A stretch of DNA of 64,000 bases, from NCBI GenBank assembly GCA_951406725.2, contig OX597817.1, positions 159,960,001 to 160,024,000 on the forward strand, written 5' to 3'. The stretch is from Octopus vulgaris. Taxonomy: Eukaryota. The stretch's first letter is position 1. Every line of letters starts with the position of its first letter. Positions 14,520 to 40,610 of this stretch are shown here, one piece after another. A model generated the notes under the pieces. It had not been told where the DNA came from and ran no database searches. It worked only from the letters and a program-made list of their open reading frames with translations. A program made the translations under genes and the position numbers.

Positions 14520-17300
14520 CATTTAGTGTTGACTCTTGTCCCTACCTGTATCTTACCTGTTATACTGCCATCAATTATCTCCATACCATGAAACATGAAT
14601 TTGATGGTTCTGTACATATACAAATGAATTGTAGACACATACTTGTACATCTTTTGCGATGCCAACCAAAAGAGTCACATACTGGAAAAGGTACATTTTA
14701 TGATTTTTTTTATTTATTTAGGTTTTACTGAGGTAAGTAGATAGAGTACTACATTCACCTTTGTTCCAGGAAACAATTTGCTTGTGTAAACAACAGGGTT
14801 TGAACATGAAAAAAAAAACCTATAGAATTAATCCAACATCTTAACCACTGAGTCACTAACTTTCCATCTGGAAATGTGAAAAGAAAACAAATCATAAATG
14901 TTTTCTCGATACAAATGAGAAATATGATAACTAAAATAATTTGATTGTTTGTAATGAGAGTCATCTATGAATGTACCACTTCAGAGAATAATAGTAGCTT
15001 TCCAAAGATCATTAGTAATACAAGTGAAATGAAACCATGATTGATAATAGAGAAGAATGAAAACTTGGATGCACATTTCATATCACCACATGAAATTCTC
15101 CATGCCACGTGAGGAAACATACATAGCACGATACCAAGCAAATATGCCACTGTAATGAATATATATACTACTTTTGCGTACATAGAATCGACTACAGCAG
15201 CACACATACTATTATACCAAACACCTGTACCTCTATACTAAACATATATCATACCATTATCATAAACATATATATATACTACTAAGCCAAACATGCATTC
15301 CACTGTACTGAGTATACACACAACTAAACCAATATGCAGAGCATATATGCTACTATACCAAACATATAGACCATTATATGAAATATACATGCCTCTATTC
15401 CAAACCTTATCATCTATTTCTTTACTACCCACAAGGAGCGAAACACAGAGGGGACAAACAAACGGATTAAGTCGATTACATCGACCCCAGTACATAACTG
15501 GTACTTAATTTATCGACCCCGAAAGGATGAAAGGCAAAGTTGACCTCGGCGGAATTTGAACTAAGAATGTAGCGGCAGACGAAATGCAGTTATGCATTTC
15601 ACCTGGCGTGCTAACGTTTCTGCCAGCTTGCCGCCAAACCTTATCCAAACTTTATCATCATTATCATCATCATCGTTTAATGTATGTTTTCCATGTTGGC
15701 ATGGGTTGGACGGTTTGACATGGAGCTGGCCAGCTGGGGAAACTGTCCAGACTCCAATTGTCTGTTGTGTCATGGTTTCTATGGCTGGATGCCCTTCCTA
15801 ATGCCCACCACTTAACAGAGTGTGCTGGGTGCTAATTATGTGCCACTGGCATGGGTTTGTTTACGCGGCACCACACAGGTGTGTTTTATGTGGCACCAGC
15901 TCCTGAAAGGACAAATTTGTATGTATGGAAGACAGCAATTTTACTGAGCTTGACATGTCTTATCAAGTACAGCAAATATATACATCACTATATGAAACAT
16001 AGATATCATAATCTCAAACATATATACCATTATACCAAATATACATACTATTATAGTGAACATATATACCACTTTTTCAGACATGTACACCATTGTACCA
16101 AACATATATACCTATTTCTTTACTGCCCACAAGGGGCTGCACAAAGAAGGGATAAACAAGGACAGACAAACGGATTAAGTCGATTATATCAACCCCAGTG
16201 TGTAACTGGTACTTATCTAATCGACCCCGAAAGGATGAAAGGCAAAGTCAACCTTGGCGGAATTTGAAAACATGTATACCACTAAACCAAACATGTATAT
16301 ATATATATATATATATATATATATACCATTGTACCAAAAACATTTATACTGCTGTATCAAGCATACATACCATTATAGTGAACATGTTTACCACCTTTTC
16401 AAACATGTATACCACTAAACTGAACATATATCATACCACTATACCAAATATGTATACTATTAAACCAAACAAATATACATATATGCCAAATATGTATGTA
16501 TATATATCAATATGCCAAAAGCATTTACACTGCTATATAAAACACACATGCCATTATAACAGATATACATACCAACATACTAAGCACACATGCCATTATA
16601 GTAAGCATGTATAACACTGTACCAAACATATACACCACTATACTAAACATGTATTTCACTTTACCAAATACACATACTACTACACCCAACATATATACTA
16701 CTGTATCAAAACATAACTACCATTCTGCCAAACACCCAAACTACAGCATCATAGTGATCCTTGTTCTCTTGTGAATATAGTTTTCAACAACCAAAACGAA
16801 AAAATTTCAATAAATTCAATAAGTGAGATATTATTCCAATACCAAAAAATTCCTCAAAGACAATGCAACCATTGCAACACAGGTGAGTGTATAGATAGTT
16901 GGGGGGTGGGGGTTGTAGAATAGTGAAAACAGCAAGGAGTGAGGTTTAAAGTCAGCTAAAACATGGTTACTACACTTGCAGCTTTATTGTCAGGTGTTTC
17001 ACTATTAATTGTCTAATCTGTTTAAATATGTTGCATGTGAGTGCAGAATTGATTTTGTCACTTGTAACAGCAACAGAAAGTATAATGTTGTCTTACTGAC
17101 AGTTAGAGAGAAAAATCTATCAACAGCAATGATATATAGCTACTATAACGAGAGAGAGATGTTCTTGTAGTTGGGTTTGGCCTTTTTGTTTGTTTGTTTC
17201 TGTATTAGTTTTTTCTGTTTTGTAAAGTTGATTCCTGAGGCTATCCAAGTCTTAAGTAGTCACATGATTCAATATACATGTCTTTATGTATTTCATACAT
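14520..17300 (+). repeat. Inverted segmental duplication, copy 1
   Basis: Reverse-complement homology to 38530-40610; 16912-17181 matches 38659-38928 with no mismatch. Confidence 0.92.
15200..16740. repeat. Degenerate ~20-bp minisatellite (ccaaacatatataccactata-like) interrupted by SINEs
   Basis: Recurrent accaaacat/ataccact motifs. Family C SINEs (minus) at about 15413-15635 and 16112-16266; family D element at about 15660-15960. Confidence 0.7.
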
Positions 17301-38529: not shown

Positions 38530-40610
38530 ATGCATAGATGTGGAATACAAAAAAACATGTATATGAATCATGTGACTACTTAAGATTTTAGATTGCCATG
38601 CCTCAGGAGTCAACTTTAATAGTAAAAGAATAGAAAAAAAAGTGGGGTGGAAAAAAAAGCCAAACCCAACTACAAGAACATCTCTCTCTCGTTATAGTAG
38701 CTATATATCATTGCTGTTGATAGATTTTTCTCTCTAACTGTCAGTAAGACAACATTATACTTTCTGTTGCTGTTACAAGTGACAAAATCAATTCTGCACT
38801 CACATGCAACATATTTAAACAGATTAGACAATTAATAGTGAAACACCTGACAATAAAGCTGCAAGTGTAGTAACCATGTTTTAGCTGACTTTAAACCTCA
38901 CTCCTTGCTGTTTTCACTATTCTACAACACCCCCCCCCCCAACTATCTATACACTCACCTCTGTTGCAATGGTTGCATTGTCTTTGAGGAATGTTTTTGG
39001 TATTGGAATATTTCACTTATTGAATTTATTGGAATTTTTTCGTTTTGGTTGTTGAAAACTATATTCACAAGAGAACAAGGATCACTATGATACTGTGGTT
39101 TGGGTGTTTGGCATAGTGGTAGTTATGTTTTGGTACAGCAGTATATATATGTTGGGTGTAGTAGTACATGTATTTGGTAAAGCGAAATGCATGTTTAGTA
39201 TAGTGGTGTATATGTTTGATACAGTGGTATATATGCTCACTATAATAGTATATATACATATATGTATATATATATATATATATATGTATATATATATGTG
39301 CATATATATATATATATATATATATATGTGTATATATGTATATATATATATGTATGTATATATATATATGTGTGTGTGTGTGTGTATGTATATATATGTA
39401 TATATATGTATGTATATGTATGTATATGAATGTATATATATGTATATATATGTATATATATATATGTATATATATGTATATATATATATATATATATATA
39501 TATATATATATATATATATATATATATATATATAGCTGTATATTTCATAGTTTTCGTGATGTACATGTTGAGTATATTGGTATAATGTATATTTGGTATA
39601 TTGCTATGTATGTTTCATTTTGTGGTATGGAGTATTTCACATAGATGTATGAAAGGTGCCTCAAGGTTTCAATTCATGTTTGTTATTAATCATAGTTCCA
39701 TTTCATTTATATTTCTATAGGCATAGGAGTGGCTGTGCTTACCAACCACATGGTTCTGGGTTCAGTCCCACTGCATGCCACCTTGGGCAACTGTCTTTTA
39801 CTGTAGCCTCGAGCCAACCAAAGCCTTGTGCGTGGATTCAGCAGACAGAAACTGAAAGAAGCCCGTCATATATATGTGTGTGTGTGTGTGTGTGTGTATT
39901 TATGTTTGTGTGTCTGTGTTTGTTCCCCAACATCACTTGACAACCGATGCTGATGTGTTATGTCCCCGTAACTTAGGAGTTCGGCAAAAGAGACCGATAG
40001 AATAAGTACTAGGCTTGCAAAGAATAAGTCGTGAAGTCGATTTGCTCGACTAAAGGCAGTGCTCCAGCATGGCCAAATGACTGAAACAAGTAAAAGAGTT
40101 CTTTTGAAAGGTATTAAAGCCACCAGTCTCCTTTGAAGTGACCTATTCATAGATATCTCTCATTACAGAAAATCAAATTATTTTAGTTGTATTAAAGAAA
40201 ATATTTACGATTTGTTTTCTTTTAGTATTTCCAGATGGAAAGTTAGTGGTGGCTCAGTGGTTAAGGTGTTGGGTTAATTTTATAGGTTTTTTTTCATGTT
40301 CAAACCCTGTTGTTTACACAAGCAGATTGTTTCCTGGGACAAATGTGAATGTAGTACTCTACTCACCTCAGTAAAACCAAAATATAAAAAAATTATAAAA
40401 TATACCTTTTCCAGTATGTTGCTGTGTTTTGCTTAACATCACAGAAGATGTCCAGTTATTTTAATAAAACATGTTTCTATAATTTATAAGAATATTTTCA
40501 GAACCATCAAACCTATGTTTGATGGTATAGAAATAACTGACAACAGTGTAACATGTAATATACAGGTAGGAGACAAAAGTACATTTACCTTTATTGTCAG
40601 CACTTACTAA
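38530..40610 (-). repeat. Inverted segmental duplication, copy 2 (contains SINE A at 39719-40098)
   Basis: Reverse complement of 14520-17300, with independent SINE insertions. Confidence 0.92.

What the first reader, a model, noticed from the sequence alone, without database searches (positions are those of the whole stretch)
16912..38928. 270-bp perfectly complementary core inside an old inverted duplication 21.5 kb apart
Seen: 16912-17181 is the exact reverse complement of 38659-38928, compared base by base. Homology continues on both sides but is diverged (by eye about 90% just outside, about 80% inside, about 70% distally). Each copy carries its own SINE insertions, so the duplication is old. 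The core is non-repetitive and has no long ORF, only MVTTLAALLSGVSLLIV* at 16963. Inference: either strong selection on a duplicated enhancer or ncRNA, recurrent gene conversion between inverted arms, or maintained long-range RNA pairing in a pre-mRNA. Such a duplex could be an ADAR substrate (A-to-I editing is extensive in coleoids) or promote looping or back-splicing. The arms could also be breakpoints of a recurrent 21-kb inversion. The core contains a 10-bp stem (aatagtgaaa/tttcactatt) followed by ACA on the copy-2 plus strand, loosely H/ACA-like.
Basis: partly seen in the sequence, partly recalled or inferred. Interest (0 to 1): 0.75.

Follow-up and report, generated by a model that had tools for sequence, protein, structure and literature searches.

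The report
Old inverted duplicate homogenised by conversion
Two old mirror-image copies of apparently non-coding DNA, 21.5 kb apart in an animal genome, share an identical 270-base middle whose changes are also shared by both copies in a related species, most likely because one copy is repeatedly overwritten by the other, a known repair process with no function shown here.

Summary
In detail: 16912-17181 is the exact, maximal reverse complement of 38659-38928. It lies in a roughly 3-kb inverted duplication found only twice in the 2.8-Gb genome, with arms 92-97% alike just outside the core and 76-80% distally. It is neither a young repeat nor an assembly collapse. Contigs from other samples decide the mechanism. 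In organism E, a contig with the copy-1 flank and one with the copy-2 flank carry the same three changes inside the core, and both G-tract versions lack the same 5 bases at its edge. The core thus differs between species but not between copies, which is concerted evolution by interlocus gene conversion. It is not detectably slower than its flank (4/260 against 7/224, p=0.36). There is no Rfam hit, no stable fold and no host gene within 200 kb. One oddity stays open: 4 of the window's 6 perfect splice-donor motifs sit at two homologous places in the arms, both pointing inward. RNA pairing and recurrent inversion are untested. Verdict: a new example of a known process.

The parts
16912..17181 (+). 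Core, copy 1: 270 bp identical to the reverse complement of copy 2; 35% GC, no simple repeat apart from a (GA)5 run
38659..38928 (-). Core, copy 2
16560..16911 (+). Outer proximal flank, copy 1 (92-97% like 38929-39240); ends in a T-interrupted G tract at 16901-16912
38929..39240 (-). Outer proximal flank, copy 2; uninterrupted G tract at 38930-38940
17182..17350 (+). Inner flank, copy 1: about 45 bases of T-rich sequence unlike copy 2, then about 85% alike, then simple repeats
38500..38658 (-). Inner flank, copy 2, with a copy-specific C-rich block at 38638-38650
14249..15137 (+). Distal arm blocks, copy 1 (14249-14332, 14532-15001, 15013-15137), 76-79% like copy 2
39593..40727 (-). Distal arm blocks, copy 2 (40642-40727, 40116-40580, 39593-39717)
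39728..40099 (.).
15414..15851 (.). Interspersed repeat pieces present only in arm 1
14730..14738 (+). Perfect splice-donor-like 9-mer A; homologue at 40361-40369 on the minus strand
   Evidence: splicing not shown
16781..16882 (+). Exon-like stretch B (102 bases) ending at a perfect donor-like 9-mer 16880-16888, 29 bases before the core; homologue 38959-39058 minus strand has a 3-base loss and a 1-base gain
   Evidence: splicing not shown; no protein relative
16963..17016 (+). 17-codon hydrophobic frame inside the core (homologue 38824-38877 minus); both organism-E substitutions in it are synonymous
   Evidence: chance about 0.10
38681..38766 (+). Sites changed in both copies of organism E: 4-base loss in the GA run at 38681, substitutions at 38754 and 38766 (copy-1 places 17150-17159, 17086, 17074)
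38923..38927 (+). Five bases at the outer edge of the core present in both window copies and absent from both G-tract versions of organism E
   Evidence: table 7
17182..38658 (.). Intervening 21.5-kb segment that a crossover in the core would invert; repeat-rich, no recognised gene

Best explanation
The 270-bp core is the identical middle of an old, two-copy inverted duplication whose copies change together in each lineage, most likely through repeated interlocus gene conversion that needs no selection. Shown: two copies only, a gradient of identity that peaks at the core, copy-specific flanks that persist in two other organisms, and core changes shared by both copies in organism E but absent from both copies here. 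Inferred: a break in one arm is repaired on the other arm 21.5 kb away on the same chromosome. The longest unbroken match is the best substrate, so identity sustains itself there. Tracts likely end at the fast-changing G tract outside and the 45-base T-rich mismatch block inside. Occasional longer tracts would explain the 92-97% outer flank. A crossover during such repair would invert the segment between the arms.
For: (1): X10 record 1 has the copy-1 inner flank (its loose end matches window 17272-17301 at 29 of 30 letters and nothing else in the window). X20 record 3 has the copy-2 inner flank (no substitution or deletion listed over 38637-38657, where X10 record 1 has 10 substitutions). Both carry the 4-base loss at 38681 and the substitutions at 38754 and 38766. 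The 4-base loss lies within one 31-letter word of each copy-specific edge. (2) table 7: both X10 records lack the same 5 bases at the outer edge, one on a T-interrupted G tract like copy 1 and one on an uninterrupted tract like copy 2. (3): in organism C two contigs, one with copy-1 and one with copy-2 alleles, both stop at 16941, as expected if they merge into one shared node that starts at 16912. (4): without exchange since the split from E, 4.2-8.4 differences between the copies would be expected in 270 bases; none is seen (P 0.016 to 0.0002). (5): core against outer flank divergence 4/260 and 7/224, Fisher p=0.36; theory expects a converted neutral tract to diverge between species at the single-copy rate (PMC3924837, passages). 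(6) Length fits: efficient conversion needs roughly 200 bp of identity and falls with distance and divergence (PMC3924818, passages); tracts are a few hundred bases (PMC3961182, passages).
Against: The cross-species evidence rests on three low-depth contigs (depth 4-6.5) from two runs of one organism label. Contigs are graph paths, so the two substitutions about 100 bases from the flank could be stitched from one copy; only the two indels are tied to copy-specific letters within one word. X10 record 2, used as the flank yardstick, mixes copy-1 and copy-2 alleles and may be a merged path. The core rate is about half the flank rate, and the test is too small to exclude moderate constraint. The identical tract starts 29 bases after a perfect donor-like motif, and the only other high-identity patch (92%) also surrounds such a motif, which a purely neutral model does not predict. 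No break hotspot was identified.
Confidence: 0.72

Rival explanations
1. Identity is kept by selection, with conversion as the means. Either both arms lie in one precursor RNA and form a 270-bp duplex just past a splice donor (an ADAR or splicing control), or they are twin inward-pointing 5' ends of spliced non-coding transcripts that must stay alike.
For: 4 of the 6 perfect donor 9-mers in the window (15 in 464 kb) lie at two homologous places in the arms, on the inward strand of each; two on one strand within 3.1 kb has a chance near 0.001, computed after the fact. Identity peaks around both motifs. The core borders are the same in the window, organism C (outer border) and organism E.
Against: No host gene was recognised within 200 kb on either side. 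Copy 2 lacks the acceptor AG of the 11-base exon-like piece and has frame-breaking indels in stretch B. One organism-C contig changes the last exon base of the copy-2 donor (depth 3.7). Neutral conversion already accounts for the identity.
Confidence: 0.14
2. The core is the exchange point of a recurrent 21.5-kb inversion, and crossovers with their conversion tracts keep it identical (not exclusive of the best explanation).
For: Geometry and size match known toggling inversions (PMC9731477, passages; PMC3961182, passages). One contig of organism A (X9 record 4) joins copy-1 outer alleles through the core to 7 letters that read like the copy-2 inner edge.
Against: That join is also what a graph path across a shared core or a single-base change would give. 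In organism E the T-interrupted G tract sits with the copy-1 inner flank, the same arrangement as in the window. 270 bp is far shorter than the kilobase repeats of the cited inversions.
Confidence: 0.12
3. Each copy is held unchanged on its own by strong purifying selection, as a duplicated ultraconserved enhancer, structured RNA (H/ACA-like, microRNA) or micropeptide.
For: Core divergence from organism E is low (4 substitutions and 2 indels). Both substitutions inside the 17-codon frame are synonymous (chance about 0.10). Six organism labels hold part of the stretch (20 of 24 rows).
Against: Independent selection cannot put the same new indels in both copies. No Rfam family at gathering score in the window; the only core hit at E up to 10 is snR33 at E 9.5, 14 bits against a cut-off of 45. 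Fold z-scores are -0.26 and +0.98. 3 of the 4 organism-E substitutions break predicted sense-strand pairs and no partner change is listed.
Confidence: 0.04
4. Assembly collapse or polishing artefact, or a young mobile element inserted twice.
For: Perfect identity inside diverged arms can come from polishing. The genome search skips very common words, so a count of two is a lower bound.
Against: Independent samples hold both copy-specific flanks running into the same core. An individual of organism A shows the window's core with one difference in one contig. Core and flanks are colinear between arms with no insertion boundary. Three genome searches each found only these two places.
Confidence: 0.02

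Closest known systems
Interlocus gene conversion and concerted evolution of duplicates (Fawcett and Innan 2011, PMC3924837; Mansai, Kado and Innan 2011, PMC3924818; passages read)
   Same: Paralogues more alike than orthologues inside the tract; shared substitutions and small indels; exchange ends where substitutions, indels and transposon insertions break pairing; tract above the roughly 200-bp minimum.
   Different: Here no gene is recognised, and the tract is a single 270-bp island in about 3 kb. Conversion rate and direction were not measured.
Saccharomyces flip/flop region (Salzberg et al. 2022, PMC9731477; passages read)
   Same: Two inverted copies about 24 kb apart (21.5 kb here), homogenised within species and diverged between species, proposed mechanism conversion during non-allelic recombination.
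   Different: There the whole 4.2-kb repeat is homogenised, holds expressed sporulation genes, and both orientations are documented. Here only 270 bp is identical, no gene is known and no inversion is shown.
Human and mammalian inversions between inverted repeats, including FLNA-EMD (Aguado et al. 2014, PMC3961182, passages; Caceres et al. seen only as cited in PMC9731477, the paper itself was not held)
   Same: Inverted duplicates with a short near-perfect patch inside less similar arms (for example a 782-bp 99.9% patch in 94% duplications at HsInv0209).
   Different: Those repeats are kilobases long and the inversions are genotyped; here toggling is only a prediction.
Box H/ACA snoRNA
   Same: A long hairpin with a 10-bp closing stem; ANANNA hexamers occur on the sense strand (10 in 350 bases).
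   Different: No Rfam match, no stability above shuffles, no two-hairpin H-box and terminal ACA layout on one strand, and interspecies changes break predicted pairs.

Membership tests
Concerted evolution by interlocus gene conversion | Duplication older than the species split (copy-specific flanks shared by species) | tested here: met
   Copy-1 and copy-2 flanks both present in organisms C and E
Concerted evolution by interlocus gene conversion | Inside the tract, paralogues share changes that orthologues in another species lack | tested here: met
   Two indels tied to both copy-specific edges, and two substitutions on contigs of both flank types, in organism E; low depth, contigs only
Concerted evolution by interlocus gene conversion | Tract of identity longer than chance and above the minimal efficient length | tested here: met
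   270 bp; 1e-5 under random placement; about 200 bp minimum in yeast and rodent cells
Concerted evolution by interlocus gene conversion | Polymorphisms shared between copies within a species | tested here: inconclusive
   One contig of organism A carries the copy-2 allele at 38961 within 26 bases of a copy-1-type G tract (depth 4.5); single record
Recurrent (flip/flop) inversion between inverted repeats | Both orientations exist among individuals or species | tested here: inconclusive
   X9 record 4 ambiguous; X10 record 1 has the window's arrangement
Ultraconserved non-coding element | Between-species divergence far below the flanks | tested here: not met
   4/260 against 7/224, p=0.36; small numbers, close species only
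Box H/ACA snoRNA | Match to a known family, or hairpin-H box-hairpin-ACA layout with stable, covarying stems | tested here: not met
microRNA precursor | Stable 60-80 nt hairpin and small-RNA reads with precise ends | tested here: inconclusive
   Best local window z -2.6 among several hundred tried, -16 kcal/mol; no small-RNA reads available; supplement search of PMC9699675 covered only 24,410 characters and skipped file 2
Long-range intronic RNA duplex (ADAR or back-splicing substrate) | Both arms in one transcript; A-to-I clusters or a splicing effect | not testable with these tools
   Only contigs were served; no host gene found
Young interspersed repeat | Many near-identical genomic copies with insertion boundaries | tested here: not met
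   2 places in 2.8 Gb; colinear flanks

The most novel reading that the evidence does not exclude
The arms are the duplicated, inward-facing 5' ends of a spliced non-coding transcript. Their 270-bp core, starting 29 bases after a strong donor, is kept letter-perfect by selection acting through gene conversion, because the two copies pair as RNA (a long-range editing or splicing switch in an animal rich in A-to-I editing) or because the 21.5-kb segment toggles between two equivalent promoters in wild populations.
Probability: 0.1. Interest if true: 0.62.

Novelty: new member of a known kind. Interest (0 to 1): 0.27.

Why it matters
As it stands this is an ordinary process with unusually direct evidence: both copies change together across species, in a lineage where I saw no paper on such a locus in the listings of four searches (listings only). 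It warns that perfect paralogue identity in these genomes is not by itself a sign of an ultraconserved element. It also gives a small, PCR-sized locus for measuring conversion and inversion rates. It would matter more if RNA data showed splicing at the paired donor motifs or editing across the core.

Tried and rejected
Rfam: 0 matches at gathering score in 64 kb; at E up to 10 over 16500-17400, 23 matches, 21 of them on the simple repeat beyond 17260, one (AfaR, E 1.7) in the outer flank and one (snR33, E 9.5) in the core. Folding: whole core no better than shuffles on either strand; local scan best z -2.6. Host gene: Pfam on 149 window frames (148 of the 161 unmasked frames listed plus one added) gave six weak hits, all below cut-off; on the nearest 150 of 898 flank frames gave only transposon-type domains above cut-off; on 136 of the 150 top-ranked of 3,553 frames (14 dropped as pieces of retrotransposon frames seen) gave transposon domains and one C2H2 zinc-finger frame about 180 kb away. 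An exon heuristic returned mostly transposon frames. Protein searches with 27275-27490 minus and with exon-like B found nothing among longer proteins, which is weak evidence. The ESM Atlas gave no usable hit for the 230-codon frame at 25948-26637. Expression: no RNA holder listed; X20 is only guessed to be RNA, and its contig shows no joint and no A-to-G change, but contigs drop rare variants, so this says nothing either way. In one search the core beyond 16941 was uncovered in 4 of 4 runs, and X13 gave no contig; the tool's filter leaves records out, so these holes were not used. Organisms B, D and F therefore gave nothing on the core. Word shares were not used as conservation measures. MicroRNA supplement search: 0 hits, but incomplete; unread supplements of PMC9699675 may bear on the microRNA question. 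Earlier scan notes near this place or with this sequence: none. In the 464 kb examined, the other two low-copy identical inverted pairs longer than 270 bp are a retrotransposon fragment pair and a near-palindrome, so I have no estimate of how common such islands are in this genome.
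Full report
Observation. Window 16912-17181 is the exact reverse complement of 38659-38928, and the match cannot be extended by a base on either side. Searches of the 2.8-Gb own genome with the core, with 16700-17300 and with the distal block 14500-15140 each returned only these two places; the tool warns that such counts are lower bounds. 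The arms run from about 14250 to 17350 and from about 38450 to 40730. Substitutions per 100 bases fall from 14-22% in most of the distal block, through 8%, 6% and 3% in the outer flank, to zero in the core, then jump to 13% and 31% inside. Each arm has its own inserted repeats, so the duplication is old relative to the core's identity. Random placement of the 22 differences in the outer flank plus core gave a 270-base run at a rate of 1e-5.

The deciding comparison. Twenty of 24 listed sequencing runs, under six organism labels, hold part of the stretch. I laid contigs of eight runs. In one search the core was filtered out in all four runs, but two organism-C contigs, one with copy-1 and one with copy-2 alleles, both end at 16941, 30 bases into the core, as expected when two paths merge into one shared node at 16912. 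In one search, organism E gave the key result. X10 record 1 runs from the copy-1 inner flank (loose end matching 17272-17301 at 29 of 30 letters) through the core. X20 record 3 runs from the copy-2 inner flank (no listed substitution or deletion over 38637-38657) into the core. Both carry a 4-base loss in the GA run at 38681 and substitutions at 38754 and 38766, none of which is in either window copy. At the other end, both X10 records lack the five bases 38923-38927, one next to a T-interrupted G tract as in copy 1 and one next to an unbroken tract as in copy 2 (table 7). X10 record 1 has two more substitutions, at 38863 and 38866, in a part that X20 does not cover.

What this shows. The copy-specific flanks are older than the split from organism E, yet inside the core the copies of each lineage share changes that the other lineage lacks. 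Each such change arose once and spread to the other arm. This is the definition of concerted evolution (PMC3924837, passages). The two indels lie within one 31-letter word of copy-specific letters, so they cannot be stitched by the assembler; the two substitutions could be. The evidence is three contigs of depth 4 to 6.5 from two samples. Without exchange since the split, 4 to 8 differences between the window's cores would be expected.

Is the core also under selection? Its divergence from organism E is 4 substitutions in about 260 bases against 7 in 224 for the outer flank, p=0.36. The flank contig mixes copy-1 and copy-2 alleles and may be a merged path, so the yardstick is rough. The data exclude neither neutrality nor moderate constraint. 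A structured RNA is not supported: no Rfam family, z-scores of -0.26 and +0.98, a 10-bp stem that 2.4% of shuffles also have, and three of four interspecies substitutions that break predicted sense-strand pairs with no partner change listed. Against my reading, both substitutions in the 17-codon frame are synonymous, which has a chance of about 0.10 before allowing for other frames.

Mechanism. Shown: joint change of both copies. Inferred: repair of a break in one arm on the other arm. Conversion is favoured by same-chromosome position, short distance and over about 200 bp of unbroken identity, and drops steeply near 80% identity (PMC3924818, passages). Tracts of a few hundred bases are usual (PMC3961182, passages). 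The core is the only stretch of the arms with more than 59 identical bases in a row, so it would keep attracting conversion while the rest drifts apart. Its borders coincide with a G tract and a T-rich block that differ between copies and sit at the same places in organisms C and E. A crossover in the core would invert the 21.5 kb between the arms, as proposed for the yeast flip/flop region (PMC9731477, passages). One organism-A contig joins copy-1 outer alleles to seven letters like the copy-2 inner edge, but a graph path or a single-base change gives the same picture.

The open oddity. Only 6 perfect donor 9-mers occur in the window and 15 in 464 kb; four are at two homologous places in the arms, pointing inward in both. 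The core starts 29 bases after the second, and a 92% patch surrounds the first. The arms may therefore be a duplicated piece of a spliced transcript. No host gene was found within 200 kb, exon-like stretch B has no protein relative, and copy 2 shows decay of these signals. No run on record as RNA was available, so transcription, editing and pairing are untested.

Comparison and verdict. The locus works like other conversion-maintained inverted repeats and meets the tests for concerted evolution that could be run. It does not meet those for an ultraconserved element, an H/ACA RNA or a young repeat. Earlier scan notes describe the same anatomy in several other animal genomes (unchecked notes, not evidence). 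Listings of four literature searches showed no paper on this locus. It is a new member of a known kind, interest 0.27, with a 10% chance that RNA data reveal a selected duplex or switch.

Noticed in passing
window 14730, 16880 (+); 40369, 38961 (-): Four of the window's six perfect splice-donor 9-mers lie at two homologous places in the arms; an 11-base exon-like piece at 14722-14732 has an acceptor AG in copy 1 only.
   Followed up: partly
window 40400-41000 (-): The distal part of arm 2 has an internal degenerate repeat (14544-14597 also matches 40860-40913) with several AAG/GTA donor-like motifs in series.
   Followed up: no
window 25948-26637 and 27275-27634 (-): A single-copy 1.5-kb stretch inside the bracketed segment with open frames of 230 and 120 codons; no Pfam, protein or Atlas match. 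Could be a terminal exon or a decayed element.
   Followed up: partly
window 24085-24405: A near-perfect palindrome of about 320 bases between TA runs, seen; similar fold-back elements at 20922-21286, 34726-35022 and 29351-29922.
   Followed up: no
L011 (window-relative -124552 to -123809): 290-bp exact inverted pair with a spacer of about 165 bases, low copy in the 464 kb examined.
   Followed up: no
L006 and L027 (window-relative -167406 and 107483): 314-bp exact inverted pair 275 kb apart, both in a retrotransposon-like frame.
   Followed up: no
L038:6906-7370 (+): 155-codon frame with C2H2 zinc fingers above Pfam cut-off, about 180 kb beyond copy 2; gene or retrotransposon tail not decided.
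   Followed up: no
window 47849-48979, 54614-55713, 2223-2755: Young tandem arrays with units of about 42, 185 and 76 bases.
   Followed up: no
window 38718: One substitution inside the core in a single organism-A contig of depth 4.5; polymorphism or error.
   Followed up: no
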